Shown here in pieces: positions 14,866 to 30,705 of a DNA stretch of 64,000 nucleotides. The notes below the pieces were generated by a model. It was not told the origin of the DNA, made no database searches, and saw only the letters and a program-made list of their open reading frames with translations. The stretch comes from Bradymonadia bacterium. Lineage in GTDB: Bacteria > Myxococcota_A > Bradymonadia > UBA7976 > UBA1532. The translations under genes and the position numbers were made by a program. How positions within the stretch are numbered: the stretch's first letter is position 1; the number at the start of each line of letters is the position of its first letter. The stretch is taken from assembly GCA_046290225.1 (NCBI GenBank), contig JBKAGE010000036.1:300918-364917 (forward strand), written 5' to 3'.

Positions 14866-16023
<1,158 letters not shown>

Positions 16024-16050
16024 TCAACGAGCCAGAGCCCGGATCACGTT

Positions 16051-17871
16051 ATGCTGACCAATATGCGAGAGAAGTCTCAGAACTTCGGCATCTATTTCCT
16101 GTTCGCCATATTGATCTTCGTGTTCATTTTCCTGTTCGGCCCTCAAAGCGAAGGCTGTCAGGGCTCCTCTGCTGTACAGGCCCGCGTGGGCTGGGCCGCC
16201 ACGGTGGCCAACGCTGAGCTGACCCAGGAAGAAGTCGAAGTTCAGCTCAAGCGAAAGTATCGCAACCTGAGCGATCTCTCCGCCGCCGATCTCGCCCAGC
16301 TGCGCCGCGAGGTGCTGATGCAGCTGATCGACGTCACCCGCATGGCTCAGAAAGCTCAGTCCATGGGCCTGGCCATCGACAAGGAGACGATCACCAACTT
16401 CATCGTCAGCAAGGACAACCCCGACTTCTTCGCCTTCGCCATCAAGGTGGGCACGGGGAACACCAAGGACGACTTCCGGTTCGACGTCGACACCTACCGC
16501 TCTGTGGTGCGCCAAGTCTTCGGCATCAACGACGAGGAGTACCGCCGCATCATCGAGCAGGAGCTGCTCGTACAGCGCTACATGGAGTTCCTCACCGAGC
16601 AGGTGCAGGTGAGCAAGGCCGAGGCCCAGGAGGCCTACGAGCGCCGCGAGCGCAAGTGGAACCTCGAGTTCGTCACCTTCGACGCCGCCAAGGTCACCGA
16701 GCTGACCCCGGCCACCCCCGAAGAGGGTGCAGCCTACGCCAAGGCCAACGCCGACGAGATCTCGAAGTACTACGAGGACAACAAGGGCGTCTACGTGCAC
16801 GATAAAGAGGTGAAGGTCCGCCGGATCCTCCTGAAGCTGCCCAAGGGGGCCGACGACGCCAAGAAGGCCGAGCTGAAGAAGAAGGCTGAAGAGATCCTCG
16901 CCGAGGCAAAGGCCGAGGGCGCCGACTTCGAGGCCATCGCCCGGGAGAAGTCCGAGGGCTACTACAAGAACTTCGGTGGCGACATGGGCTGGCGCAGCTC
17001 CGACAACTCCCCTGCCGAGGACTACAAGGTCTACGCCGGCCTCGAGAAGGGTCAGATCTCCGCCGTGAGCGAGAACGCCTCCGGCTTCTGGATCGTGAAG
17101 GCCGACGACGTCAAGCCCGCCATCGACCGCAAGCTCGACGCCGTGCGCGATGAGATCGGTCAGATCCTCGCCTCGAAGACCAAGCGCCGCACCCAGGCCA
17201 AGGCCGACGCTGAGGCCCTCCTGGCCAAGGTCAAGGGTGGCAATGTGACCCTCGCCGAGCTCGCCAAGCCCGCCGAGGAAGCCACCCCCGAGATGCCCAA
17301 GCCGGAAATGCCCAAGCCCGAGATGCCCAAGCCCGAAAAAGAGGGCGACACCCCGGCGATGCCCAAGCCTGAGACCGCTCAGAACACGCCCAAGAAGCCG
17401 GCCTTCAAGGTGCAGGAGACGGGCATGTTCAACGACGATCGCCCCAACTGGGAGATCATCCCCAAGATGGGCAAGGTGCCCGAGCTCGCCGGCGTGCTCA
17501 ACAGCCTCACCAAGGAGAAGCCCCAACCTGGCCAGCTCTTCGAGGCCAACGACCGCTTCTTCGTCGTGCGGCTCAAAGATGCTCAGGATCCCAACATGGA
17601 GCTCTTCGAGAAAGAGGCCGACGATCTCACCAACCGCCTGCGGCGCCAGCGTCAGGGGCAGCTCGTGGGTCAGTGGCGGGGTTACCTCTTCGGTCAGGCC
17701 CAGTACCGCGACTTTGTCAAGCAGCGTGGCCTCGGCCTCCTGGCCCTGGCGCTGCCCGAGGTCGAGAAGGACAGCAGCATCAAGGTGAACACTCAGGCCT
17801 TCCCTGGTCCGCCTGCTCCTCCTGCGGCCCCCGGCACCGATGCCAAGGCCAACCCCACCAAGGGTGGCTGA
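16051..17871 (+). CDS. Periplasmic chaperone / parvulin-type peptidyl-prolyl isomerase (PpiD/SurA-like)
   Basis: Only the part from ATG 16051 (MLTNMREKSQNFGIYFLFAILIF, a TM anchor) is credible. The upstream 15211-16050 part of the 886-aa track ORF is antisense to mreB. It has a SurA-N-like region plus a rotamase domain (VKVRRILLKL...GGDMGW...GFWIVK). Confidence 0.75.
   Translation: MLTNMREKSQNFGIYFLFAILIFVFIFLFGPQSEGCQGSSAVQARVGWAATVANAELTQEEVEVQLKRKYRNLSDLSAADLAQLRREVLMQLIDVTRMAQKAQSMGLAIDKETITNFIVSKDNPDFFAFAIKVGTGNTKDDFRFDVDTYRSVVRQVFGINDEEYRRIIEQELLVQRYMEFLTEQVQVSKAEAQEAYERRERKWNLEFVTFDAAKVTELTPATPEEGAAYAKANADEISKYYEDNKGVYVHDKEVKVRRILLKLPKGADDAKKAELKKKAEEILAEAKAEGADFEAIAREKSEGYYKNFGGDMGWRSSDNSPAEDYKVYAGLEKGQISAVSENASGFWIVKADDVKPAIDRKLDAVRDEIGQILASKTKRRTQAKADAEALLAKVKGGNVTLAELAKPAEEATPEMPKPEMPKPEMPKPEKEGDTPAMPKPETAQNTPKKPAFKVQETGMFNDDRPNWEIIPKMGKVPELAGVLNSLTKEKPQPGQLFEANDRFFVVRLKDAQDPNMELFEKEADDLTNRLRRQRQGQLVGQWRGYLFGQAQYRDFVKQRGLGLLALALPEVEKDSSIKVNTQAFPGPPAPPAAPGTDAKANPTKGG
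17290..17334 (+). repeat. 3 x 15-bp in-frame tandem repeat (PEMPK) inside the PpiD-like gene
   Basis: gagatgcccaagccg / gaaatgcccaagccc / gagatgcccaagccc. Confidence 0.9.
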
Positions 17872-17909
17872 GCCATCATCGGCCTGACGATTCCAGGCCA
17901 GCACGCATG

Positions 17910-17938
17910 AAAAAGGCGCCCCTTGGGGCGCCTTTTTT
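17910..17938. terminator. Bidirectional intrinsic terminator between convergent genes
   Basis: AAAAA-GGCGCCCC-tt-GGGGCGCC-TTTTTT. This GC stem is flanked by an A-tract and a T-tract, 39 nt after the PpiD-like stop and 74 nt beyond the stop of the 18012..19214 gene. Confidence 0.7.
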
Positions 17939-17958: not shown

Positions 17959-18001
17959 GGCCCCTGTCTGGCCCCCCTATCTGGCCCCCCCTGTCTGGCC
18001 C
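17959..18001. repeat. Three tandem copies of a roughly 13-14 bp unit (CCCCTGTCTGGCC)
   Basis: cccctgtctggcc / cccctatctggcc / ccccctgtctggcc, in the intergenic tail next to the terminator. Confidence 0.8.
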
Positions 18002-18011
18002 AGAGTTGAAC

Positions 18012-19214
18012 TCAGCCGACGCGGTTCACACTCAACATCGCGTGTCGCATCTGGTTCAGCTCCACCATGTTGAGTGATCCAGAGCGCAGGTATGCGCGGC
18101 GAATCCCCCCCACCTGCTCGGCGAGCATGATCTCCGACAGCTCGTTGAGTCGCCGGGTCAGCCGCTCAAGTAGATTGCTCACTCGGCGGTGCTCTCCGTC
18201 AGCCTGGGCCCGACCCATGTCTTCCACCCATGACAGCAGCTCCACCCGATCCCGGGCAATGACGAGTGGGCTTTGGGCCATCAGACGCTGCTGGCCAGGC
18301 TGATCGACCGACACGACGATCTCGTGCTCAACCTCACTGGCGCGGCCTTGATCGCTCCAGCTCAACTTTGCAGTGCACACTCGATACATGCCAGCGACCC
18401 GTCGTGGGATCACCATGGTCATCAAAAACCGCGGTGTGCTCTGATCACCCATGGGGCCCGGATCGAGCATCAGTCGTCGCTCGGTGTGGCTGACCCGCAC
18501 CGCACCCAGGAATGCCCTGGTGGGTGCCAGGCGGAACATGTCTCCGGGCTGAACCCCGTGAGGGAAGCTCAGCTCGAGCTTGGGGTTGAGCACCCGCTGC
18601 CCCTGAAGCGCTGGCAAACGCCGTGCAAGTGGAGCACTGAGCTCATTGAGCTCCGTGGCCACCATGAGCGCCCCACCGCCGAGGTTGGCCAGGCGGTTGA
18701 GCAGGCCCAAATCGCTGGACATCGACACCACCAGGACGTCGATGCCGATGTTCGCCTGAGAGAGCTGGGTGGCCGCCCGAGTGAGTGCTTCGCCCCCTTC
18801 GTGGGTCATGCCGCTCACCACGAGGGTGACACGTCGGGCCACAGGTACCCCAGCAAAGGACTTCAGCGCTTCGTAGCCCGCCTCGAGGCCCTTGGTAATC
18901 GTGGGCTGAGGGCTCGACCACGCCATGCCTTCAGGATCCGCATCTACCGTGAGGCTGCGACCCCCTTCGCCGAGGATGACATCTTCGTCGCCCAGATGCG
19001 TGATGAGGCCAGCGATGGCCTGCCCGAGGTGAGCCTTGAGCGGACCATCGGGGTGAGCACACACAGGGATGACGGCCAGGACCAGAGGCGCTCGATCGGC
19101 GCCTTCGTGCCGCGCAGTGATGTCGAGGCTGAGGGTGAGGCTGGCCTCCTGCTCGGAGAGCGTGATCGCAGGTGGATCAACCCGCGCGTCGATGCTGATC
19201 TCAACAGCGCTCAC
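18012..19214 (-). CDS. vWA-fold protein with degenerate MIDAS plus a C-terminal beta-rich/helical domain
   Basis: 400 aa with a GTG start overlapping the upstream stop (GTGA). The strand pattern PLVLAVIPVCAHPDG ... VTLVVSGMTHEG ... IDVLVVSMSSDLGLLNRLANLGGGAL matches the vWA beta1/beta4/beta5 layout, but the DxSxS motif is missing. Confidence 0.5.
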   Translation of the reverse strand: MSAVEISIDARVDPPAITLSEQEASLTLSLDITARHEGADRAPLVLAVIPVCAHPDGPLKAHLGQAIAGLITHLGDEDVILGEGGRSLTVDADPEGMAWSSPQPTITKGLEAGYEALKSFAGVPVARRVTLVVSGMTHEGGEALTRAATQLSQANIGIDVLVVSMSSDLGLLNRLANLGGGALMVATELNELSAPLARRLPALQGQRVLNPKLELSFPHGVQPGDMFRLAPTRAFLGAVRVSHTERRLMLDPGPMGDQSTPRFLMTMVIPRRVAGMYRVCTAKLSWSDQGRASEVEHEIVVSVDQPGQQRLMAQSPLVIARDRVELLSWVEDMGRAQADGEHRRVSNLLERLTRRLNELSEIMLAEQVGGIRRAYLRSGSLNMVELNQMRHAMLSVNRVG

Positions 19215-21178
19215 TTGCCACGCCCCTTCCTCGGAATGCTCAAAGGCGTCGCGTCCCCCATGGGCAGAGGCGAGCCAAAGGAGAGCACCACACAGCTGAT
19301 GTTGTCGCCCCCTGCACCGCGGTTGGCGAGGACCATCAACTCAAAGGCTGCCCATGTGGCTCCGGGGGCCGACTCCACGATTTGCCTCATACGATCTTCT
19401 GCATCCTCTTCGTCGAGGCCTGCGTAGTCTGGGATGCCGTCGGAGCACAAGACGATGGTGTCGCCCGGCAACACCCTCAGCTCCCGAAAGTCGGGCTGGA
19501 GCGGCACCGGCACAAGTCGATCGCGATCGTTCTTCTCGAACTCGCCGACACACCGCACCAGGGCTCCGCCCCCGGCGACCTGACGCACCGTGGAGGGGGT
19601 GCGGCCGAACCTCAACAGCTGGGTGGCCAGATCGTGATCAGCCATCAGAGATGTGATGTGGCCATCGCGAATGAGGTAGATGCGGCTATCGCCGATGGAC
19701 ATCAGGGTCACCGCGTTGCCGTCCACCAGAGCAGCGACAGCCGTTGAGGCCATGATGCCCATGGGCTGAGCAGGGAACGTGGGCATGTCCTGGTGCACCC
19801 GCTCACCGATGCGGGCGTTGGCCTGATCGAGCATCTGGCGCATGATGGCCCGGCGGCCCTTGGGGTTGAGCGGCAACCCCGGACGACTGTAAGGCCCCGG
19901 CTCGAAGATGAGGCCCGTGGACTCTACGTTCTCGCGATCGGCAGCCTTGGGCGACTCTACCCGGCCACTTCTCAGGCGGCTCCAGAGGTTGAACGCCTCT
20001 TCTCGAACGCAGGCACTCGCCAAATCTCCAGTGCCGTACTCCGAGATGCTCACCCCATCAGCGATCAGGAACAGGCCCACACCCGTGAGGTGGTCCCATG
20101 CGAGGAACATGTCGTCCTGATTCTGGGGGTTGTACTGCCCTTTGAGCACGCCGATGTGCAGCTCGTGTCCGATCTCGAGCTTGAGCCTCTGGAACGGCAG
20201 CGTGCTCCGCTTCTCTTCTTGATGGAGTGCCCAGGCCAGCGCGGTACGCAAGGCAAGAGCGTCGGGATACCGCCTGCTGGGCACCGGCGAGGTGGCTCTG
20301 CGAATCACCGCCACCAGGTCAGGTGAAACATCGAGGCGATAGATGTTCGGGTTGGGCAGACGCTCGCTTGGCCAGACCGTCTCCTCGAAACGCTCCACAC
20401 CGGTGACGAGGTAGTACAGCACCATGCCGGCGAAGAAGACATCGGTGGCCGGCGTGATCACGCCGCCACAGTGTCCGACGACCTCAGGTGCCGAGAAGCC
20501 GGGGCTCACGGGCTGGGCCTCAGGGTGAAAGGGGCCATCAGCGATGTCGAGGGGTACAGGGATGTCGAGGAGGACGCATCGATCCTGAGGGGTGATCAAT
20601 ACTTCGTCGGGATCGACAGCGCCGAGGAACAACCCCTGATCGTGCAGCTGAGCGAGGAAGTTGATGACTGGCAGGGCCCATGTACGTACAGCCTGGGCAT
20701 AGACCACAGCGTCGCTGGACTCGGACATCCGCTCGATGGCCTCACCGAGCAGCGTGCCTTCAGGCAGCGCGGTGACGACGCATCTGCAGTCCGCCCAGTC
20801 TGCCACCCACGCTGGGCTCAAGGCAGCATCACCGAGGAGCGCCCGGGCTTCCGCTCGCCTTCGCCGGAGCGCTTGCACTGCATCGGCTGCGGTGATCACG
20901 ACTTCGTAGCGACGGCCTTCCTGACCGTCAGCGAGGAAGCGGCGCTCCTCCGAGCCATGTTTCAAGGCGCGCTTGAGGGTGATGCTCTCGCGGCCCCCTT
21001 CGATGATCTCACCGACGCCGGGCCAGCTGCGGGTGCTTTCTTCAGGGGGCGCAGCCCGCAGGCCACAATAACCACACCATGCACCGCTCACAGGGTGGCC
21101 ACAGCCTCGGCACTCGCTGGCAGGGGCCATGTGCTTCTTCTCGCCATCCTTCACTGGATGGTCCACTTCCTGGGTCAA
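19211..21178 (-). CDS. Zinc-ribbon / pseudokinase / PP2C phosphatase fusion protein
   Basis: 655 aa with a TTG start preceded by GAGGGAG. The N-terminus has CRGCGHPVSGAWCGYCG. The kinase fold is shown by SAPE and DVFFAGMVLYYLVTG, but VAIK reads VVIT, HRDLKPxN reads LGAVDPDE and DFG reads LDIPV. The C-terminal PP2C has intact metal motifs (LIADGVS, IGDSR, CSDGI, GGDNIS). Confidence 0.7.
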   Translation of the reverse strand: MTQEVDHPVKDGEKKHMAPASECRGCGHPVSGAWCGYCGLRAAPPEESTRSWPGVGEIIEGGRESITLKRALKHGSEERRFLADGQEGRRYEVVITAADAVQALRRRRAEARALLGDAALSPAWVADWADCRCVVTALPEGTLLGEAIERMSESSDAVVYAQAVRTWALPVINFLAQLHDQGLFLGAVDPDEVLITPQDRCVLLDIPVPLDIADGPFHPEAQPVSPGFSAPEVVGHCGGVITPATDVFFAGMVLYYLVTGVERFEETVWPSERLPNPNIYRLDVSPDLVAVIRRATSPVPSRRYPDALALRTALAWALHQEEKRSTLPFQRLKLEIGHELHIGVLKGQYNPQNQDDMFLAWDHLTGVGLFLIADGVSISEYGTGDLASACVREEAFNLWSRLRSGRVESPKAADRENVESTGLIFEPGPYSRPGLPLNPKGRRAIMRQMLDQANARIGERVHQDMPTFPAQPMGIMASTAVAALVDGNAVTLMSIGDSRIYLIRDGHITSLMADHDLATQLLRFGRTPSTVRQVAGGGALVRCVGEFEKNDRDRLVPVPLQPDFRELRVLPGDTIVLCSDGIPDYAGLDEEDAEDRMRQIVESAPGATWAAFELMVLANRGAGGDNISCVVLSFGSPLPMGDATPLSIPRKGRGK

Positions 21179-21278
21179 GATGACTCCCTCAGTCTGCCAT
21201 CAGAGAGGGCACAATATGACAAGGTGTCGGGGGGGGCAATGTCGACAGGATGACGCCGTTTTCTGAGTTCAACTGTTT

Positions 21279-21950
21279 TTAGAGCTCAACGAAGACGACT
21301 CGGGAACGCTGGAGGTGTTCGCCCGCCATGTTGTATGCGCGGATCATGAAGCCGTATCGCTCGCCGATCTCAAGTTCGACCTCAAAGCTGGGTGTCTTGA
21401 TGTTTTCCCACGACTCTTCGTCGGAGGGCACCTGAGCACCCTCGGGCCAGGTCTGGCTGATGACGGTGTAGCGATCAGCGCCGGCGAGGGCATCCCACTC
21501 GAGGCGCACCGTCTTTTCGTCGAGCACGTCGATCCGCAGACCGAGCACCGGCCGGAAACCGGTCTCACGAGAGCAGACATTGCACAGCTCGATGCCAGGC
21601 AGGTGGCGCTCGTCTTCATAGCTCTGCCGCTCTTCGCACACGGAGAGACAGATCGGATCAGCACCACACCGGGCCTCGCAGACATCGGCCTCGGGCTCGT
21701 CCCGATCGAAGATGGCCACTTGATGTACTGCGCCACGACGAGGCACGCCGATGACCTCCAGCGCAGTCTCGGGGAGCTCGGCCCGGGCCTGGATCCCCCG
21801 AAGTCGTTTTGGGGTCCACGTGGCCTCAGAGGCAGTAGATTCCACGACAGCGCGGTCATCCTGGCCATCGATGTCACCTTGCACCCCACACCCGGCGACG
21901 CCGAAGGCGGAGATGAGGCACAACAGGGAGACGCTCAAAAGCTTACGCAT
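21279..21950 (-). CDS. Lipoprotein with a Cys-rich segment and a C-terminal FN3-like domain
   Basis: Trimmed to ATG 21950, giving MRKLLSVSLLCLISAFGVAGC (lipobox). Also present are CEARCGADPICLSVCEE and CNVC motifs. The C-terminal VRLEWDALAGADRYTVISQ is FN3-like. Confidence 0.5.
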   Translation of the reverse strand: MRKLLSVSLLCLISAFGVAGCGVQGDIDGQDDRAVVESTASEATWTPKRLRGIQARAELPETALEVIGVPRRGAVHQVAIFDRDEPEADVCEARCGADPICLSVCEERQSYEDERHLPGIELCNVCSRETGFRPVLGLRIDVLDEKTVRLEWDALAGADRYTVISQTWPEGAQVPSDEESWENIKTPSFEVELEIGERYGFMIRAYNMAGEHLQRSRVVFVEL

Positions 21951-21954
21951 GGCT

Positions 21955-22728
21955 TCAGTCCTCCTCATCGCGCAGGCAGCTGCCGGTGTAGAGCCCATAC
22001 ACTCGGGACTCATCGGCCTCTTCAGCGGCTTCCTCAAGCTCGTGCACCCGAGCGCGGATGAAGTCGAGCAGCTCTTCCCGGAATGCCCGAGCATCTTCAG
22101 GTCGGGCCTTGAAGGCAAAGGTGCGGGCCGCAGCCTCGTCGGGCTCGTCGCCGATGAACCGCTGGAGGATCGTCTCGGTGAGCACCTCGAGGTGCTCGCT
22201 CAAACCATCGATGCGGGCTTCCCAGTTGGCGTCGCAGTAGAGGTTCCGGTGACCTGGGACGAGGCGGTAACGCACTTTACGGCCGGGGGTCCGCTCGTCT
22301 TCTTCGATCCGCCCCTCTTGCAGCAAGGTGCGCACCGCCAGCCGGGTGCTGTCGAACTCGTTGCTGTGGGGCAGACGCTCTGCGAGCTCGTCGATGGACA
22401 TGGGCCGCTGGCTCAACATGTCTTCGATGCGACGGGTGAGGTTGGTCTCGGTCTCCTCGAAGAACCCGCCTTTGTTGAACCGTGCAGAGAGCGCTTTGAT
22501 GGTGCGGGTGGACTTCCCGAAGATGAGAGAGATGACGTTGATGGTGGAGTGCTTGCGCTTGGCCTCTCGCCAGAGGGCGAGCGTCATCATGTCTTTGACG
22601 GTATCGAGCGGGTAGTTGAACTTCGCCGCTGTCTTCACCGCGGGGTAGAACATGGTGAACAGCATGCGCAACACATACTCGGAATAAGGGATTGTACCCT
22701 CTGTCGTGTCTTTGGCCTGTGACTCCAT
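21955..22728 (-). CDS. Putative DNA-binding protein (HTH plus winged-helix-like segments)
   Basis: Trimmed to ATG 22728 (MESQAKD...). STINVISLIFGKSTRTIKAL and MSIDELAERLP...LAVRTLLQEGRIEE look like HTH/wHTH units. It ends 4 nt before the lipoprotein gene. Confidence 0.45.
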   Translation of the reverse strand: MESQAKDTTEGTIPYSEYVLRMLFTMFYPAVKTAAKFNYPLDTVKDMMTLALWREAKRKHSTINVISLIFGKSTRTIKALSARFNKGGFFEETETNLTRRIEDMLSQRPMSIDELAERLPHSNEFDSTRLAVRTLLQEGRIEEDERTPGRKVRYRLVPGHRNLYCDANWEARIDGLSEHLEVLTETILQRFIGDEPDEAAARTFAFKARPEDARAFREELLDFIRARVHELEEAAEEADESRVYGLYTGSCLRDEED

Positions 22729-24072: not shown

Positions 24073-27000
24073 ATGGAGACGTGCACCTTCATCGATGTGA
24101 GCCGCGCAACGAAACGTGAGCGAGTCGGAGTGTCCGAATCCAGCTTCATCGGCATCACCATCGCCCAGCGCTACCGGGTCGAGCGGAAGCTCGGCCAGGG
24201 TCCTGTGGGCACCTTGTATGCCGGCCGCCATCTCGACACCGATCAACAGGTGGCGATCAAAATTCTCAACCCGGACTTTGTCCCAGGTACACCTGAGGTC
24301 GATGCCGCCCTCGCCGATGGGCGAACAGCCTCCGAGCTGGCGCACCCTCACCTCGTGCCCATGCTCGATCAGGGCGTACACGAGTCCCGCTTCGTGTACA
24401 TCGTCGAGCCCCTGCTCGAGGGTCAGTCTCTCGCTGATCAGCTCGGTGATGGACCACTCCCGGTCGAAGACGTAGTGCGTATGGGGCGTGGGGTGCTTCG
24501 TGGCATCGGCGGTCTGCACGATGCGGGTTTGACGCACCTCGACCTCAAGCCATCGAACATCTTCCTCATCGACGAGGGCGACGGTCGGCAACGCCCGGTG
24601 GTGAGTGGCGTGGGCATCGCCCACCTGCTCCGCCTCGATGATGCCCGGAAGGGGGCTCGGGGCCGATGCCTCGCTCGGCCTGAGTACCTGGCCCCAGAGT
24701 GCATCAAACGCGGTGGCCAGCCCGACGCGCGCAGCGACATCTATGCCTTTGGCGTGTTGATGTACGAGGCCCTCACGGGCCGTCCGCCTTTCACGGGCAA
24801 CAACTTCTCCAGCACCGCCAAGCGCCATGTGTACGAGAAGCCCTTGAGCGTGCGTCTGGTCCGCCCTCAATCGGGGATCCCCGAGAACCTCGACGCGTTG
24901 GTCATGCAGTGCCTCGGCAAGGCCTTCAAGGATCGCTTCGAGACCGTCGCCGCGGTGGCCAGGGCATTGTACCAGCTGGTCGAATCAGGCCTTGGCGGTG
25001 ATGCCCTCAGGGCAGAGCCCTCTTTTGCAGGCCCTCCCCCGCTGGCGCTGATCGCCGCCGGCGCCACGCTCCTCGACCATCCTGCAGTGCCCACACCAGA
25101 GGAAGACGCTGGAGACGTTGAGCAAGGTGGGGAAGCGCCAGTCTCTGCAGACGGTGCGCCTACAGTGCTCGATGTGCCTGCAGTGAGCCTCCCCGCAGCA
25201 GAGCTGGAGGATACTGCAGAGCCTGAAGAGGCCGTGAAGCCTGAAGAGGCAGCAGAGCCAGAGGCTGACGCAGAAGAAGACACCTCTACGGAAGTGGCTG
25301 AGACTGCAAAGTCGCCTGAACCAGAGTCGCCTGAGCCAGAATCGCCTGAGCCAGAATCGCCTGCAGACAAGACTTCTGAGCAGGCTGAGGATGCTGAAGC
25401 CTCCACCGACGAGTCCGAGAGTGGCGTGCCCGACACGGCTGTTTCGGCGTCAGAGGTCGATGAAGACGAGGTCACAGAAGACGAGGTCAATGACTCGGAG
25501 GCTGCCGGCTCTGAAACCCATGAGCCAGACCCTCAACAGGGAGACACACAGACTCAGGCAGAGCAGGCGCCAGAGAGTACCGACGAGCCTGCCGCGGCAA
25601 CCATCGGAGCAGCTGCCGACACAGCGCCCGCAGAGGACGACACTTCAGAAGACGCCGAGGCAGCTTCTCCTGCGACCGAAGACAGCCCTTCTGAAAACGA
25701 GACAGCAGCCTCTGAAGACGAGCCCAGTGAAGAGGGGCTCACTCAAGAGGTCGCAGCAGCCAGTCCTGAAGAAGGCTCGGAGGCCGCTGAGGATGCGCCC
25801 TCCGCACAAGAAGCATCTGCTGATTCGAAGAGTGCACCCAACGCTTCAGACACAGAGTCCGGCTCGGAGACACCCGAGGCCAGCACTTCGACAACCGAAT
25901 CAGATGCAGACTCTGCATCTTCTGCCGAGCCAAGTGCCGAACCGGACACTGATGGTGATCCCGAAGAGCCCGCTGTAGTCGCAGCGGAGTCGCCCGAGAA
26001 GGCCGAAGCGGAGGCATACACCGAAGCGTCCGGACCTGCAGAGCAGACCGCTCAGTCCAACACCTCGCAGGGGCAGAGCAACCGGGGCAAGCGCAACAAG
26101 CGTGGCAAGAAGAAGAAGCGCGGCAAGCGGCGCTCCTCTCCTTCCCTGCCTGTTGTGCCTGCGGTCAAAGCCGACACTGCTCAAGAGGCAACAGCTCAGA
26201 AACAGGCCCAGGCCTCCACTGACGAGACAGTGGAAGAGCCCCAGCCAGCTCCAGAGAAGAAGGCTTCTGAAAAGTCAGGCCCAACAAAGGCGGCCCCTAC
26301 AAAGGCAGCTTCCAAGGACAAACAAGCTGCAGCGGCGCGACAGGCCACCGAGCCAGGCAAGGGTGACGAGACCAACCAGGAGAACGGGATCCATAAGGCC
26401 AGCGAGTCTGGCGTGCATCTCGACACCTGGTTCGTCGATGGTGACAGCGTCGAGCAGCTCGAAGAGCAGCAATCGAAGCTCTCCGTGTACCAGGTGCCCG
26501 AGGAGAAGGAGCGCAGCTTCTTCCTCCCTGTCCTCCTCTCCGTCGCTGCGCTCGTGGGCGGGCTCATGCTGTACTTCTCCAGCAGCACACAGCCCTCCAC
26601 CGATGCTCCAGACGCCGAGGCCACTGTCGCCGACCAGACACCCGAGCCCGTGAAGCCTCCAGGCGCCGACCCCAAACCCGAGGCCACACCTCCGAAACCT
26701 CCAGCAAACCCTGCTCTGCAGATCGAGCAAGCGGCGCGGCAGGCCTTCGAAGAGCAAAAGTGGTCCGGCAGTCAGGACGCCCTTGCTGAGCGCTTGCAGG
26801 CCCTACGCGCCTTGCAGCCCACCAACAAGGTGGCCAGCAGGCTGGAGAGTCGGGCCGTGAACCGTCTGCTCGCCGAGAGCGACGACGCCCAGAAGAAGGG
26901 CGACTGGACACTCGCCGAGACCCACCTTCGCCATGCTGGGCTGATCTCGCCCAAGAACCCCCTGATCAGCACGGCTCAGGAGAACCTGGCCAAAGCCCGC

Positions 27001-27855
27001 ACGATGGCTTCGAAGAATGCAGCCCAAGCAGCTGAACAAGCCGCCGCCCAAGCAGCAGCAGAGAAGGCTGCTGCTGAGCAAGCCGCCGCGGAGAAAGCTG
27101 CTGCCGAAAAGGCAGCTGCGGACAAGGCTGCCGCTGAGAAGGCCGCTGCAGACAAAGCCGCCGCCGAAAAAGCTGCTGCCGAAAAAGCTGCCGCTGAGAA
27201 AGCTGCCGCTGAGAAAGCTGCCGCTGAGAAAGCTGCCGCAGCAAAGGCCGCTGCAGATAAAGCAGCCGCAGACAAAGCAGCCGCAGACAAAGCTGCTCAG
27301 CTCGCGGCCTCTCAGAAGGCCGCCCAAGCACAGGCCCTCAAAGACAAGCGTGCAGCTGAGAAGGCCGCGGCAGCACGTAAGCGCCGTGAGGCCGCAGAGG
27401 CGCGTAAGAAGCGAGAGGCAGAGGCCAAGGCAAAGCGAGACGCCGCCAAGGCTGCTGAGCGAAAGGCAGCCACCGAGCGTAAAGCGGAAGCCAAACGCCT
27501 CGTGGGTGTAGGCAAGGTCCACATCCGCAATGCCAAATGGTCCGAAGCGCGCAAGAGCTACTCAGCAGCGATCAAGCTCGACAAGAGCAACGCTGCTGCA
27601 TATGCCGGGCTGGGCAAAGTGGCCTTCCAGGAGCAGAAGTTCTCCGAGTCGGTCCGCAACGCCGAGCGCAGCGTGAAGCTGTCTCCTCGCAACGCCGATT
27701 ACCGCGTCAGCCTCGGCCTCGCGTACTTCAAACTCAAGAAGTTCGGTCAGGCCAAGAGCGCTTGGGAAAAGGCTCTCACGCTCTCACCGAGTGCCTCGAC
27801 CAAGCAGACCGCCAACAAATATCTGAAGATTGTCGAGAAGCGCCTGAAGAACTGA
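24073..27855 (+). CDS. Giant membrane Ser/Thr protein-kinase-family protein with an acidic disordered linker, one TM segment, an (AAEKA)n coiled-coil-like region and C-terminal TPR
   Basis: 1260 aa. The kinase domain has LGQGPVGTLY, VAIKIL, HLDLKPSN and LAPE, but GVG occupies the DFG position. The TM segment is FFLPVLLSVAALVGGLMLYF. TPR repeats sit at the end. Confidence 0.8.
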   Translation: METCTFIDVSRATKRERVGVSESSFIGITIAQRYRVERKLGQGPVGTLYAGRHLDTDQQVAIKILNPDFVPGTPEVDAALADGRTASELAHPHLVPMLDQGVHESRFVYIVEPLLEGQSLADQLGDGPLPVEDVVRMGRGVLRGIGGLHDAGLTHLDLKPSNIFLIDEGDGRQRPVVSGVGIAHLLRLDDARKGARGRCLARPEYLAPECIKRGGQPDARSDIYAFGVLMYEALTGRPPFTGNNFSSTAKRHVYEKPLSVRLVRPQSGIPENLDALVMQCLGKAFKDRFETVAAVARALYQLVESGLGGDALRAEPSFAGPPPLALIAAGATLLDHPAVPTPEEDAGDVEQGGEAPVSADGAPTVLDVPAVSLPAAELEDTAEPEEAVKPEEAAEPEADAEEDTSTEVAETAKSPEPESPEPESPEPESPADKTSEQAEDAEASTDESESGVPDTAVSASEVDEDEVTEDEVNDSEAAGSETHEPDPQQGDTQTQAEQAPESTDEPAAATIGAAADTAPAEDDTSEDAEAASPATEDSPSENETAASEDEPSEEGLTQEVAAASPEEGSEAAEDAPSAQEASADSKSAPNASDTESGSETPEASTSTTESDADSASSAEPSAEPDTDGDPEEPAVVAAESPEKAEAEAYTEASGPAEQTAQSNTSQGQSNRGKRNKRGKKKKRGKRRSSPSLPVVPAVKADTAQEATAQKQAQASTDETVEEPQPAPEKKASEKSGPTKAAPTKAASKDKQAAAARQATEPGKGDETNQENGIHKASESGVHLDTWFVDGDSVEQLEEQQSKLSVYQVPEEKERSFFLPVLLSVAALVGGLMLYFSSSTQPSTDAPDAEATVADQTPEPVKPPGADPKPEATPPKPPANPALQIEQAARQAFEEQKWSGSQDALAERLQALRALQPTNKVASRLESRAVNRLLAESDDAQKKGDWTLAETHLRHAGLISPKNPLISTAQENLAKARTMASKNAAQAAEQAAAQAAAEKAAAEQAAAEKAAAEKAAADKAAAEKAAADKAAAEKAAAEKAAAEKAAAEKAAAEKAAAAKAAADKAAADKAAADKAAQLAASQKAAQAQALKDKRAAEKAAAARKRREAAEARKKREAEAKAKRDAAKAAERKAATERKAEAKRLVGVGKVHIRNAKWSEARKSYSAAIKLDKSNAAAYAGLGKVAFQEQKFSESVRNAERSVKLSPRNADYRVSLGLAYFKLKKFGQAKSAWEKALTLSPSASTKQTANKYLKIVEKRLKN
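25312..25365 (+). repeat. About 3.5 x 15-bp in-frame tandem repeat (SPEPE)
   Basis: tcgcctgaaccagag / tcgcctgagccagaa / tcgcctgagccagaa / tcgcctgca. Confidence 0.9.
27061..27300 (+). repeat. 16 x 15-bp in-frame tandem repeat encoding (E/D)KAAA pentapeptides
   Basis: Units such as gagaaagctgccgct are repeated perfectly three times at 27196-27240, with degenerate copies on both sides. Confidence 0.95.
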
Positions 27856-28151: not shown

Positions 28152-29216
28152 TCACCACCTACCCGACCAGTTGAACATGGCCCCCTGACCTGACGGCGTC
28201 GGGCTCACGCTGGGCGTCGGCTCAGTGGGCACACCGCCGGGATCGAGTACCAGAAGAGAAATGCCGACACCCAGGGCCGCAGCGCCGATGCCCAGGGCCC
28301 CTGCCCCTGCCCAGCGGGTGTCGTAGACATTGGGACACTCTGTACGGCCGCGGCCATCATCACAGGTGATGTCACCGTCGAGATCGATGAGCCAGATGCC
28401 ACCACCCACCAGCAGAGCACCACCGATGATGCTGCCCCAGCCGTACTGAGCGTAGCTGTCGGTGCGCTCGATGGTGCGCTCGGTCCGCGTCAATGCCGTC
28501 GTCGGCTCCGCCACCACCTTCAAGGGGATCTTCACCGTGATGGGGCCCTTGGCGTCAGCCTTCACCGTCACCGGTCGATCCTCGGGCTCGAAGCCTGCCT
28601 TGCTCAATTTGAGCACATGATCTCCGGGCTTCAGCTTCACCGTGAGGGGGGTCTTGCCCTGGAACACCTCGGCGACGTAGACATCCGCCCCTGGGGGGGT
28701 GCTTTGTACCTGCACATCCATCGGCGCGTCGGCGGGGGCCTTCTTCGGCGCAGGCGCCTTGAGCTGATCAGCGAGCCCCTTCACCGCCTTGGGGATGGTG
28801 ATCGATGCCACCTCGCCCACAGCGCACAGCTCACAGGTCTCGACCTTCGGCGCCCCGACCTTGCCCTGGGCCGCGTCGTAGACCACCACCGTGACCTTGT
28901 AGATTTCGTCTTCGCTGATCACGCTGCTCATGACCGCGAAGCGCGCCTTTGCCGCTTGAGTGAGCGCCGCCCCACACTCGGGGCCAGTACACTTGTCTGC
29001 GGTGATTTTTGCCGTGCCCATCGCCGCAGCAGTGCTGTCCCGGCCCACGACTTTACGGGTCCTGGCGACCGCCTTGCGCACAGCATCGTCGAACTTCGCA
29101 CGAATGGCGTCGGAGATGCCCGCGCCCACCCTCACGGGCGGACACACCACCTTGTCGGCGAAACTCTCGGTGGGCAGGGCGGCGAGAATGAGGCAGATGA
29201 TCGACGTCCGCAGCAT
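28152..29216 (-). CDS. PEGA-domain membrane protein
   Basis: Trimmed to ATG 29216 (MLRTSIICLILAAL). The PEGA motif VQSTPPGADVYVAEVFQGKTPLTVKLKPGDHVLKL is present, with C-terminal TM helices. Confidence 0.7.
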   Translation of the reverse strand: MLRTSIICLILAALPTESFADKVVCPPVRVGAGISDAIRAKFDDAVRKAVARTRKVVGRDSTAAAMGTAKITADKCTGPECGAALTQAAKARFAVMSSVISEDEIYKVTVVVYDAAQGKVGAPKVETCELCAVGEVASITIPKAVKGLADQLKAPAPKKAPADAPMDVQVQSTPPGADVYVAEVFQGKTPLTVKLKPGDHVLKLSKAGFEPEDRPVTVKADAKGPITVKIPLKVVAEPTTALTRTERTIERTDSYAQYGWGSIIGGALLVGGGIWLIDLDGDITCDDGRGRTECPNVYDTRWAGAGALGIGAAALGVGISLLVLDPGGVPTEPTPSVSPTPSGQGAMFNWSGRW

Positions 29217-29285
29217 GCGCTGGTGTTCTCCTGCTGATAGAGCACCCAGCGATACTGTATCCATCCTGCGACAATGTCGATGCTT

Positions 29286-30062
29286 TTACCGACTCTCACC
29301 CTCGAGAACATCCACCACCATGGCGGTGATGTTGTCGTGACCCCCGGCGGCGAGGGCATCTTCGGTGAGTACCCGGGCGGCCACGTTGGGTCGACGACAT
29401 GTGATGAGACGTTGACGAATGCTCTCGTCAGAGACGAGATCGGTGAGCCCATCCGTGCACAGCAAGAAGCGATCACCGGGCATCAGATCCACCTGCTCGA
29501 CGTCGACAGCGACGTTGGGCGAGAGGCCCAGGGCCCGCACGATGACGTTCTTGTAGGGGAAGCTCGACGCCTCATGGGGTTGCAACACCCCCAGGCGTAG
29601 ATACTCGTTCACCAGAGAGTGATCCCAGGTGATCTGCGTCAACCTGCCCCCTCTCAGGTGATAGACCCGGCTGTCACCCACATGGGCCACGTGAGCGATG
29701 TGCTGGTGCACCCAGATCGCCACGACGGTCGTGCCCATACCCTCGTAGTCAGGCCGCACACGTGCTGAAGCCAGAATCTCCTGGTTCGCGATGCGCACCG
29801 CATCGGCGAGGTAGAGGGCGCTCTGGGTCACCCATGATCCCTGCCCCTGCTGTGTATTGAACGTGGGACGGGTCTCGAACTGGTTGCGGACTGCTTCGAC
29901 TGCGAGCTGGCTGGCCACCTCGCCGGAGGCATGGCCACCCATACCGTCGGCGACGACAAAGACCCCCCCACGGGGCATCGCCATCCACGCGTCTTCGTTG
30001 TGATCTCTGACCCGGCCGACATCAGTGACGACGCCGAACCGGCACACGCCTGGCGCCGTCAT
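29286..30062 (-). CDS. PP2C-family Ser/Thr protein phosphatase
   Basis: 258 aa with TDVGRVRDHNEDAW, ADGMGGHASGEVAS, VGDSRVY, LCTDGL and GGHDNITAMVV. Confidence 0.9.
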   Translation of the reverse strand: MTAPGVCRFGVVTDVGRVRDHNEDAWMAMPRGGVFVVADGMGGHASGEVASQLAVEAVRNQFETRPTFNTQQGQGSWVTQSALYLADAVRIANQEILASARVRPDYEGMGTTVVAIWVHQHIAHVAHVGDSRVYHLRGGRLTQITWDHSLVNEYLRLGVLQPHEASSFPYKNVIVRALGLSPNVAVDVEQVDLMPGDRFLLCTDGLTDLVSDESIRQRLITCRRPNVAARVLTEDALAAGGHDNITAMVVDVLEGESR

Positions 30063-30661
30063 ACGTCGAGCTTTCGTGCCAGAGACTTCACTCCATCGTG
30101 CTCTGCATCGATGGCCATCAGGCGCTCAAGGTGCCGTTGGGCAATGGGCGCCCGGCCGATCTCGATGAGCTCGTCGGCGATCTCCAGTCTCAAGCGCACC
30201 ACCTGGGCGATGCCCTCAGCATCACCGGAGGCGGCTTTGCGCTCCGCCTCCCCCAATGACAGAAGTCGGCCGACCCGCTCTCTCAAGCGGCTGATGCGCA
30301 CCGGCTTGGTCATGTAGTCGTCTACACCCGATGCCTGAGCCTGACGCAAGCTCTCACCATCTTCCCGAGCGGTGATCACCATGACCGGCAGCTGCCCGGT
30401 GTAGTGCATCTTCAGGTAGCGGGTGGTCTCCAGACCGTCGAGACGGGGCATCATGATGTCCATGAGCACCAGGTCGGGCAGGTTGTTCTGGGTGATCAGG
30501 ATCGCGTGCTCACCATCGGCCACACGCTTGACCTTCAACCCCATGCTCGCCACCCCCCGAACGATCAGGGCCGCAGCGGCGTCATCATCTTCTACGAGTA
30601 GGATGTCGTAGGGATGATTCGGCGCTTGCCCCTCGCTCCTGGCGTTTATCGACTCACTCAC
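30059..30661 (-). CDS. Response regulator (receiver domain plus C-terminal helical extension)
   Basis: ILLVEDDD...DLVLMDIMMPRLDG...VMVITAR...MTKP are canonical receiver residues. Its stop overlaps the PP2C start. Confidence 0.85.
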   Translation of the reverse strand: MSESINARSEGQAPNHPYDILLVEDDDAAAALIVRGVASMGLKVKRVADGEHAILITQNNLPDLVLMDIMMPRLDGLETTRYLKMHYTGQLPVMVITAREDGESLRQAQASGVDDYMTKPVRISRLRERVGRLLSLGEAERKAASGDAEGIAQVVRLRLEIADELIEIGRAPIAQRHLERLMAIDAEHDGVKSLARKLDV

Positions 30662-30705
30662 GATCCCTCACTCCTCTCCACCTCAATGCGCTACGGCACC
30701 TATGC

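What the first reader, a model, noticed from the sequence alone, without database searches (positions are those of the whole stretch)
18012..21178. Translationally coupled pair: a zinc-ribbon/pseudokinase/PP2C fusion and a MIDAS-less vWA protein
The 655-aa protein combines three modules. It has a CxxC...CxxC ribbon. It has a kinase fold that has lost all the catalytic signatures I checked (VAIK Lys to T, HRD-loop to LGAVDPDE, no DFG) while keeping APE and subdomain IX. It also has an apparently active PP2C domain. Its stop overlaps (GTGA) the start of a 400-aa protein whose strand pattern looks like vWA but lacks DxSxS. Comparative-genomics literature describes vWA-centred multi-component systems that combine vWA, PP2C and Ser/Thr-kinase modules. 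A fused dead kinase plus live phosphatase with a degenerate vWA partner would be an unusual variant, suggesting a phospho-dependent sensor or scaffold rather than a kinase cascade. This is my best protein-level candidate for an undescribed module.
Basis: partly seen in the sequence, partly recalled or inferred. Interest (0 to 1): 0.65.

Follow-up and report, generated by a model that had tools for sequence, protein, structure and literature searches.

The report
Dead-kinase phosphatase with ArnB-like partner

Summary
Window 19211-21178 (-) encodes a 655-aa protein with a C-x2-C-x8-C-x2-C zinc ribbon, a kinase fold and a PP2C domain. The kinase fold lacks every catalytic residue across the family. 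The PP2C domain keeps all metal-binding aspartates. Its stop overlaps (GTGA) the start of a 400-aa protein at 18012-19214 (-).

The partner is more than a degenerate vWA protein. A confident model (pLDDT 92) shows a beta-sandwich split by a vWA domain, followed by a four-helix bundle. Its best structural matches are PDB 4fx5 and the archaeal ArnA-ArnB complex. The MIDAS metal site is lost family-wide.

The pair is adjacent in all 26 distinct evaluable loci, usually with a 4-nt overlap, and both genes occur in essentially every genome of the organism's own family. Sister families instead carry a MIDAS-intact relative, in an operon with a zinc-ribbon-FHA protein and an active kinase. That operon is a bacterial ArnA/ArnB/ArnC look-alike.

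Most likely this is a hard-wired eraser-scaffold phospho-switch. The zinc ribbon and the dead kinase would dock the phosphatase on the scaffold. The physical interaction, the phosphosite and the cellular output are inferred, not shown. It is not a TerY-P defence system. Verdict: new variant of a known kind, moderate interest.

The parts
19211..21178 (-). Gene for the 655-aa Zn-ribbon / pseudokinase / PP2C protein (P0001). TTG start, stop within GTGA.
21184..21190 (-). Shine-Dalgarno-like GAGGGAG, 5 nt upstream of the TTG start.
   Evidence: Read directly from the sequence. The database copy of the protein uses the same start (P0006).
21056..21115 (-). N-terminal zinc ribbon, residues ~22-41 (C23, C26, C35, C38).
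   Evidence: Model pLDDT is ~75 here.
20201..21001 (-). Pseudokinase domain, residues ~60-326. It has a bilobal kinase fold. HRD is replaced by LGA, KPEN by DPDE, and there is no VAIK Lys, Gly loop or DFG. APE and subdomain IX are kept.
19268..20185 (-). PP2C (PPM) phosphatase domain, residues ~332-637, with invariant D355, D374, D497, D580 and D625.
19211..19214 (-). GTGA: the stop of gene 1 overlaps the start of gene 2 (translational coupling).
   Evidence: An (A/G)TGA overlap is kept in 22 of 28 loci, and the genes abut in most of the rest.
18012..19214 (-). Gene for the 400-aa ArnB-like protein (P0002).
19110..19202 (-). N-terminal strands (residues 5-35) that complete the beta-sandwich.
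   Evidence: DSSP. The topology is as in ArnB/ArnE.
18600..19085 (-). vWA-like alpha/beta domain, residues 44-205, without MIDAS (DxSxS -> IPVCA, and the second Asp is also lost).
18303..18590 (-). Main part of the beta-sandwich, residues 209-304. It carries the conserved R228/P231 and R272-x2-G275-x2-R278 motifs.
18033..18269 (-). C-terminal four-helix bundle, residues 316-394. This is the position of ArnB's phosphorylated regulatory bundle. S378 (18081-18083) lies in the conserved loop R-x3-[FY]-L-R-[ST]-G.
17910..17938 (-). Intrinsic terminator hairpin with a U-run that ends the two-gene unit. It is shared with the convergent ppiD-like gene.
   Evidence: (dG -24 kcal/mol, z -4.6)
21279..21950 (-). 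Upstream co-directional lipoprotein gene (lipobox VAGC, Cys-rich, FN3-like C-terminus). It is a frequent but movable neighbour.
21955..22728 (-). Upstream co-directional gene for a highly conserved ~257-aa protein (wHTH-like, no Pfam hit). It lies within 6 kb of the pair in 25 loci and has paralogues in the genome.

Best explanation
The two genes form an obligate cytoplasmic 'eraser plus scaffold' Ser/Thr phospho-switch of the ArnA/ArnB and TerY-P kind.

Gene 2 encodes an ArnB-type hub: a beta-sandwich split by a vWA domain, followed by a regulatory four-helix bundle. Gene 1 encodes the phosphatase that works on or with it.

Proposed steps (all inferred):
1. The N-terminal zinc ribbon of gene 1 tethers it to the sandwich/bundle face of the hub, as the ArnA zinc finger does on ArnB.
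2. The dead kinase domain has lost ATP and Mg chemistry but keeps the substrate-binding C-lobe. It acts as a docking or recognition module.
3. The fused, intact PP2C removes phosphate. Its substrate would be either the hub's helical bundle (candidate site S378 in the conserved R-x3-[FY]-L-R-[ST]-G loop) or proteins held by the hub.
4. The writer kinases act in trans.

Because MIDAS is gone, the vWA face must bind partners without a metal.

Shown here: the domain identities, the dead and live catalytic sites, the ArnB-like fold, the loss of MIDAS, the conserved translational coupling, the taxonomic range, and the sister operon. Inferred: every binding and dephosphorylation step, and the cellular output.
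For: Fold of the partner.
- The P0002 model has pLDDT 92.3 and pTM 0.91.
- Its best structural matches are 4fx5 (E 1e-20, TM 0.72), the ArnA-ArnB complex 8s05 (4e-18) and the ArnB paralogue 5a8j, followed by Sec23/24.
- The family profile hits 4fx5 by sequence across the vWA, sandwich and bundle (2e-9).

Precedent in ArnA/ArnB.
- The ArnA zinc finger binds the ArnB sandwich and bundle.
- The ArnB bundle threonines are phosphorylated by ArnC and dephosphorylated by PP2A.

Features of P0001.
- It has an N-terminal zinc ribbon like ArnA.
- Its kinase catalytic residues are all lost family-wide, while the C-lobe motifs are invariant.
- Its PP2C metal ligands are invariant and the fold matches active PP2Cs.

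Conserved linkage.
- A partner gene lies directly downstream in all 26 distinct evaluable loci, including loci with unrelated flanks.
- 22 of 28 loci keep the 4-nt overlap.
- Full-length P0001 is present in 15 of 15 genomes of the organism's own family, and P0002 in 20 of 21, at adjacent coordinates.

Sister operon.
- The nearest MIDAS-intact relative (P0085) sits in a conserved operon with a zinc-ribbon-FHA protein and an active kinase in six genomes or contigs.
- So zinc-ribbon proteins recurrently accompany this type of hub.

Candidate site and experimental precedent.
- Only one Ser/Thr position in the bundle is conserved: S378, with 78% S/T, next to an invariant Gly.
- For a PP2C from a vWA/kinase/FHA/PP2C operon, a preprint shows Mn-dependent activity and a non-catalytic N-terminal docking domain that sets specificity (Deinococcus DRA0334).
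Against: - No interaction was tested. The structure tool cannot fold complexes.
- Bradymonadaceae-like sister families carry the zinc-ribbon/pseudokinase/PP2C orthologue with no ArnB-like gene beside it. About half of those genomes have no close ArnB-like relative at all. So the phosphatase must have hub-independent substrates, and the hub may be a lineage-specific add-on.
- The four zinc-ribbon-less loci still keep a partner, although a very divergent one. The ribbon is therefore not strictly required.
- S378 is Gly in 16% of members and is replaced in the ribbon-less clade.
- No writer kinase is in the operon. The syntenic neighbour 'kinase' (24073-27855) itself lacks the DFG Asp in all orthologues.
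- Homology of the Deinococcus DRA0334 docking domain to this pseudokinase was not checked here.
Confidence: 0.55

Rival explanations
1. The ArnB-like protein is a regulator or adaptor of the phosphatase, not its substrate. By binding the zinc ribbon and pseudokinase it would switch the PP2C on or off, or aim it at other targets. The real substrates would be Ser/Thr kinases or other phosphoproteins elsewhere in the cell.
For: - The phosphatase orthologue exists without an adjacent hub in sister families, and in genomes with no close hub relative.
- In Deinococcus, the PP2C encoded in a vWA/kinase/FHA/PP2C operon dephosphorylates kinases such as RqkA, and its N-terminal domain modulates catalysis.
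- The high pTM of the P0001 model (0.86) suggests a fixed pseudokinase-PP2C arrangement that an allosteric partner could act on.
Against: - In the solved archaeal analogue, the hub's own helical bundle is the phosphorylated element.
- The bundle is the best-conserved part of P0002 and carries a conserved [ST]-G loop.
- This reading is not exclusive of the best explanation.
Confidence: 0.27
2. A condensed TerY-P-type anti-phage defence module, with the vWA, PP2C and kinase-zinc-ribbon components reduced to two genes.
For: - The same four domain types as the TerY-P triad are present.
- The kinase domain gives weak hits to defence kinase models PD-T4-6, MkoA and mad6.
Against: - Neither protein, nor nine relatives of the partner, hits a TerY-P model in PADLOC.
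- The kinase is dead and MIDAS is lost.
- The pair is single-copy. It is present in essentially all genomes of the family and sits in a stable core neighbourhood (mreBCD, ppiD-like) with no effector or mobile genes.
- That is the pattern of a vertically inherited housekeeping regulator, not a defence island.
Confidence: 0.05
3. There is no functional link. The partner would be a decaying vWA relic that merely sits downstream of a phosphatase gene.
For: - MIDAS is lost.
- The partner evolves faster than the phosphatase: 35% versus 49% mean column identity.
Against: - The reading frame is intact and 344-430 aa long across 24 ribbon-bearing loci.
- The family alignment yields a very confident fold.
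- Family-wide invariant motifs are present.
- Start/stop coupling is conserved even where the flanks differ.
Confidence: 0.03

Closest known systems
ArnA-ArnB motility-repression module of Sulfolobus acidocaldarius, with kinases ArnC/ArnD and phosphatase PP2A (PDB 8s05, 5a8j; PMC12852372, PMC6509490)
   Same: - The hub has the same tripartite architecture: a beta-sandwich split by a vWA domain, then a C-terminal four-helix bundle.
- The partner protein begins with a C4 zinc ribbon.
- The logic is reversible Ser/Thr phosphorylation.
   Different: - This is bacterial and there is no detectable sequence family link (no ArnB_C Pfam hit).
- MIDAS is lost, whereas ArnB keeps a metal site.
- The zinc-ribbon partner carries a pseudokinase plus PP2C instead of an FHA reader.
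- No kinase lies in the operon, and the output is unknown.
PDB 4fx5, vWA-type protein Caci_2163 of Catenulispora acidiphila (structural genomics, function unknown)
   Same: It is the best structural match (TM 0.72) and the best sequence-profile match (2e-9), across all three domains.
   Different: 4fx5 aligns like the MIDAS-bearing relatives. Identity is only 15%. No function is known for it, and I did not examine its gene context.
TerY-P triad: TerY-like vWA, PP2C, and a Ser/Thr kinase with a C-terminal zinc ribbon or OB fold (Anantharaman 2012; Gao 2020; as summarised in PMC11090510)
   Same: The same set of four domain types is encoded together.
   Different: - There are three separate genes with an active kinase and a MIDAS-type vWA, and the ribbon is C-terminal to the kinase.
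- The triad is found in Ter and defence islands.
- PADLOC models give no hit here.
Deinococcus radiodurans DRA0331-DRA0334 operon: vWA, kinase, FHA protein, and a PP2C with a non-catalytic N-terminal docking domain (bioRxiv 10.64898/2026.01.23.701218)
   Same: - A vWA protein is co-encoded with a two-part PP2C.
- That PP2C's N-terminal domain docks substrates and tunes catalysis.
- Mn-dependent activity was shown experimentally.
   Different: - That operon keeps an active kinase and an FHA reader.
- Its authors call the docking domain KI-FHA.
- Homology to this family was not tested here.
Sister operon in other Bradymonadia families, found here: ArnB-like vWA (MIDAS intact), a 451-aa protein, a zinc-ribbon-FHA protein, and an active kinase
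   Same: - It contains the closest MIDAS-bearing relative of P0002 (P0085).
- It is in the same bacterial class.
- A zinc-ribbon protein accompanies the hub.
   Different: - It has a reader and a writer instead of an eraser.
- The hub keeps DxSxS.
- The window's own genome has no counterpart of the zinc-ribbon-FHA or 451-aa genes.

Membership tests
ArnA/ArnB-type phospho-switch | The hub has a vWA domain inserted in a beta-sandwich, followed by a C-terminal four-helix bundle. | tested here: met
   AF2 model pLDDT 92. Foldseek hits 8s05 at E 4e-18, 5a8j at 2e-16 and 4fx5 at 1e-20.
ArnA/ArnB-type phospho-switch | The partner protein has an N-terminal C4 zinc ribbon. | tested here: met
   C23/C26/C35/C38. 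The ribbon is conserved in 23-24 of 28 loci.
ArnA/ArnB-type phospho-switch | The partner carries an FHA phosphothreonine reader. | tested here: not met
   No FHA hit. The region is a pseudokinase plus PP2C.
ArnA/ArnB-type phospho-switch | The zinc ribbon contacts the hub's sandwich/bundle, and the bundle is phosphorylated on Thr/Ser. | not testable with these tools
   No complex prediction or phosphoproteomics was available. The only supporting observation is a conserved [ST]-G loop at S378.
TerY-P triad | A TerY-like vWA with an intact MIDAS. | tested here: not met
   No PADLOC or Pfam hit. DxSxS and the second Asp are absent family-wide.
TerY-P triad | A separate PP2C gene and an active Ser/Thr kinase with a C-terminal zinc ribbon or OB fold. 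| tested here: not met
   There is a single fused polypeptide, the kinase is dead, and the ribbon is N-terminal.
TerY-P triad | Location in variable defence, Ter or restriction islands. | tested here: not met
   Stable core synteny with mreBCD and ppiD. Near-universal and single-copy within the family.
MoxR-vWA ternary conflict systems (Kaur et al. 2020) | A MoxR AAA+ ATPase is encoded with the vWA protein. | tested here: not met
   No AAA+ gene lies in the window neighbourhood or in the related loci. System definition taken.
Active Hanks-type Ser/Thr kinase | Gly-rich loop, VAIK Lys, HRD Asp, KPxN Asn and DFG Asp. | tested here: not met
   hhalign gives D->A186, K->D188 and N->E191. There is no conserved Lys, Gly loop or DFG Asp in 32 sequences.
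PPM/PP2C phosphatase (catalytically competent) | The metal-binding aspartates of motifs 1, 2, 8 and 11. | tested here: met
   D355, D374, D497, D580 and D625 are invariant. They align to tPphA D18, D34, D119, D193 and D231. TM to tPphA is ~0.84. Enzymatic activity itself was not assayed.
vWA domain | Rossmann-like alpha/beta fold. | tested here: met
vWA domain | MIDAS (DxSxS...T...D) metal site. | tested here: not met
   only the outgroup P0085 keeps LDVSSS and TDG.

The most novel reading that the evidence does not exclude
The small C4 zinc ribbon would be a general docking tag that brings readers (ZnR-FHA), writers (kinase-ZnR in TerY-P) or erasers (ZnR-pseudokinase-PP2C) onto ArnB / Sec23-24-core-like hubs in bacteria and archaea. 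In this Bradymonadia family the switch would then have been rewired. The FHA reader and operon kinase were dropped, a kinase fossil took over as the recognition domain, and the hub gave up its metal site. The result would be a constitutive eraser-hub complex, perhaps controlling envelope or cell-shape functions, since it lies beside mreBCD and ppiD.
Probability: 0.2. Interest if true: 0.65.

Novelty: new variant of a known kind. Interest (0 to 1): 0.42.

Why it matters
Bacterial Ser/Thr signalling has few cases where a phosphatase's targeting mechanism is understood. This pair offers a compact two-protein system that could be expressed in E. coli. It would allow three questions to be tested:
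- How a pseudokinase domain and a zinc ribbon aim a PP2C.
- Whether the ArnB / Sec23-24-core architecture is a general phospho-regulated hub shared by archaea and bacteria.
- What a vWA domain does once it has lost its metal site.

Reader/writer and eraser versions of the module coexist in sister families. That gives a natural comparison for how such switches are rewired.

The cellular output is unknown, and the organisms appear to be known mostly from metagenomes. Immediate impact is therefore moderate.

Tried and rejected
- The search for related loci with the partner alignment failed because it had no stretch conserved enough. I used the phosphatase alignment instead.
- PADLOC scans of both proteins and of nine partner relatives gave no TerY-P or other vWA-system hit. 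I rejected the defence reading.
- In Bradymonadaceae-like and other sister-family loci, I compared the ORFs next to the phosphatase orthologue with the partner profile. There was no similarity: hhalign probability 0.1%, and the neighbours are an epimerase and Ig-like proteins.
- Context look-ups for the distant vWA relatives P0090, P0101 and P0096 returned short, uninformative contigs.
- I asked whether the conserved Pro in the beta1-beta2 turn of the partner co-varies with presence of the ribbon. It is not clean, because the ribbon-less partners also have a Pro nearby. It is also a single evolutionary event, so I do not use it as evidence.
- I considered the syntenic neighbour kinase (24073-27855) as the writer. 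I rejected it as a good candidate because the DFG Asp is missing in all orthologues.
- The sigma-70 promoter scan found nothing. The terminator scan missed the real hairpin because of its short loop, and folding confirmed the hairpin.
- Literature searches found no description of a pseudokinase-PP2C fusion paired with a MIDAS-less ArnB-like protein.


Full report
OBSERVATION

The two ORFs lie on the minus strand exactly as reported. One is 19211-21178 (655 aa, TTG start preceded by GAGGGAG). The other is 18012-19214 (400 aa, GTG start). The four bases GTGA at 19211-19214 serve as stop and start. A strong hairpin with a U-run at 17910-17938 closes the unit (dG -24 kcal/mol, z -4.6). A 100-nt gap separates it from two co-directional upstream genes.

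THE FIRST PROTEIN

Residues 23-38 form a C-x2-C-x8-C-x2-C zinc ribbon.

Residues ~60-326 have a kinase fold.
- Pfam Pkinase is sub-threshold.
- The family profile hits PknB, Stk1 and StkP at 1e-11 to 1e-13.
- Foldseek on the AF2 model (pLDDT 84, pTM 0.86) recovers Stk1 and PknB.

The kinase is catalytically dead.
- Profile-profile alignment with a kinase from the same window places LHDQGLFLGAVDPDE on LHDAGLTHLDLKPSN.
- The catalytic Asp is therefore Ala, the Lys is Asp and the Asn is Glu.
- In 32 family members there is no conserved N-lobe Lys, no Gly-rich loop and no DFG Asp.
- G227/P231/E232 (APE), D246 (subdomain IX) and R302/R303 are invariant.
- So the substrate-binding lobe is under selection while the chemistry is gone.

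Residues ~332-637 are a PP2C domain. NCBIfam Stp1 scores 1e-23 and TM to tPphA is ~0.84. D355, D374, D497, D580 and D625 are invariant and align with the tPphA metal ligands.

THE SECOND PROTEIN

P0002 has no hit in Pfam, NCBIfam or PADLOC. An exhaustive phmmer search found 69 relatives.
- The distant relatives are bona fide Pfam VWA proteins.
- The family profile hits PDB 4fx5 at 2e-9 over profile positions 75-368.

The AF2 model is very confident (pLDDT 92.3, pTM 0.91). It shows:
- N-terminal strands 5-35;
- a vWA-like alpha/beta domain, residues 44-205;
- a beta-sandwich, residues 209-304;
- a four-helix bundle, residues 316-394.

The Foldseek ranking is:
- 4fx5, E 1e-20, TM 0.72;
- the ArnA-ArnB complex 8s05, 4e-18;
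- the ArnB paralogue 5a8j, 2e-16;
- then Sec23/24.

This is the tripartite ArnB architecture described in PMC6509490 and PMC12852372. Across 50 non-redundant sequences, only the outgroup P0085 keeps DxSxS and the second MIDAS Asp.

CONSERVATION OF THE PAIR

- In 33 fetched loci (26 distinct and evaluable), a partner-family ORF lies directly downstream on the same strand.
- 22 of 28 junctions are (A/G)TGA overlaps. Most others abut (TAATG, TGATG).
- The flanks are not always the same. L003 and L005 lack the mreBCD/ppiD context, so the pair itself is the conserved unit.
- Whole-genome searches found the full-length phosphatase in 15 of 15 sampled genomes of the organism's own family and the partner in 20 of 21, at adjacent coordinates. 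The exception is a genome whose phosphatase hit is truncated.
- Both genes are single-copy in the window's genome.
- Record titles of the fetched loci name Myxococcota, Bradymonadia and Myxococcales MAGs.
- Four loci lack the zinc ribbon. These carry the most divergent, longer partners. This fits ribbon-hub docking but is a single clade.

WIDER EVOLUTIONARY CONTEXT

Sister families of the same class have an orthologous zinc-ribbon/pseudokinase/PP2C protein (HRD -> HLR or LAV). No ArnB-like gene lies beside it.

Many of those genomes carry a separate conserved operon:
- an ArnB-like vWA with intact MIDAS (P0085 type);
- a 451-aa protein;
- a protein with an N-terminal zinc ribbon and a C-terminal FHA domain;
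- an active kinase (LIK, YQDLKPAN, DFG).

That operon is a bacterial look-alike of ArnB/ArnA/ArnC. The window's genome has no counterpart of the ZnR-FHA or 451-aa genes.

So in this family the hub is coupled to the eraser. In the sister families a related hub is coupled to a reader and a writer.

MECHANISM

By analogy with the solved ArnA-ArnB complex, I propose the following:
- The ribbon tethers the phosphatase to the hub.
- The fossil kinase domain acts as a docking module.
- The PP2C dephosphorylates the hub's helical bundle or proteins bound to it.

In that complex the zinc finger sits on the sandwich and bundle, and the bundle threonines are the regulated sites.

The only conserved Ser/Thr in the bundle is S378, in the loop R-x3-[FY]-L-R-[ST]-G (78% S/T, invariant Gly). 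This is a candidate site, not a demonstrated one.

A preprint on the Deinococcus DRA0331-0334 operon shows experimentally that a PP2C from a vWA/kinase/FHA/PP2C operon is Mn-dependent. It also shows that its non-catalytic N-terminal domain sets specificity. I did not test whether that domain is homologous to this pseudokinase.

The main rival reading is that the hub regulates or aims the phosphatase rather than being its substrate. The hub-independent occurrence of the phosphatase in sister families favours this rival. The two readings are not exclusive.

A TerY-P-like defence role is unlikely:
- there are no PADLOC hits;
- the kinase is dead and the MIDAS site is missing;
- the pair is single-copy and near-universal in the family;
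- the core synteny is stable and contains no effectors.

COMPARISON WITH WHAT IS KNOWN, AND NOVELTY

The closest known systems are:
- ArnA/ArnB (architecture and logic);
- 4fx5 (fold);
- the TerY-P triad, and an actinobacterial ZnR-kinase/PP2C/vWA theme (same domain set);
- the Deinococcus operon.

PP2C proteins with zinc-ribbon or Pkinase domains are already catalogued, though not recognised as pseudokinases.

Earlier notes of this scan report the same ArnB-like reading for related pairs in other genomes. I reached the reading independently, before those look-ups, and I treat the notes as leads only.

The features specific to this case are:
- the three-way fusion;
- the family-wide loss of MIDAS;
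- the absence of reader and writer genes from the operon.

This makes it a new variant of a known kind, of moderate interest.

LIMITS

- No complex prediction was possible.
- The cellular output of the module is unknown.

Noticed in passing
window 24073-27855 (+): The neighbouring 1260-aa 'kinase'-TPR protein keeps VAIK and HLDLKPSN but has SGVG in place of DFG. All syntenic orthologues also lack the DFG Asp (GGVG, GGYG, DGIG), and some also lack the HxD Asp. It is therefore a second conserved pseudokinase or atypical kinase in the locus.
   Followed up: partly
L034 5001-9967; also L053-L057: Other Bradymonadia families have a conserved operon: ArnB-like vWA (MIDAS intact), a 451-aa protein, a Zn-ribbon-FHA protein, and an active Ser/Thr kinase. 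It often follows ftsK. It is a bacterial look-alike of the archaeal ArnB/ArnA/ArnC set.
   Followed up: partly
window 21955-22728 (-) and 21279-21950 (-): The upstream wHTH-like protein is far better conserved than the pair's partner (E ~1e-110). It stays within 6 kb in 25 loci, sometimes inverted. A Cys-rich FN3-like lipoprotein follows it. The wHTH-like protein has paralogues on contigs C7 (51% identity) and C35.
   Followed up: partly
L014 2455-5871 (+): In many related loci, two sensor histidine kinase genes (GAF-HK and HAMP-PAS-PAS-HK) are inserted co-directionally between the lipoprotein gene and the phosphatase gene.
   Followed up: partly
window 28152-33087 (-): There is a string of GAF histidine kinase, receiver-only response regulator, stand-alone PP2C (258 aa) and PEGA-domain protein, with 4-nt overlaps. 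This is a second phosphatase-containing signalling cluster 7 kb away.
   Followed up: no
L038 3425-9393; L045; L047: In other Myxococcota families, 800-1000-aa proteins match only the kinase C-lobe remnant plus PP2C (E 1e-40 to 1e-64). They are followed directly by an active kinase fused to an AAA_16 (STAND-like) domain.
   Followed up: no
window 17961-18005 (-): Three tandem copies of a ~14-nt G-rich unit (GGGGCCAGA[CT]AGGGG) lie between the partner's stop codon and the terminator.
   Followed up: no
window 16024-17904 (-): A 626-aa open frame here is antisense to the ppiD-like gene (15211-17871 +), has a low-complexity G/L/E-rich translation, and is almost certainly not a gene. The ppiD-like ORF as listed (886 aa) starts too far upstream, because homology begins near residue 275.
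   Followed up: partly
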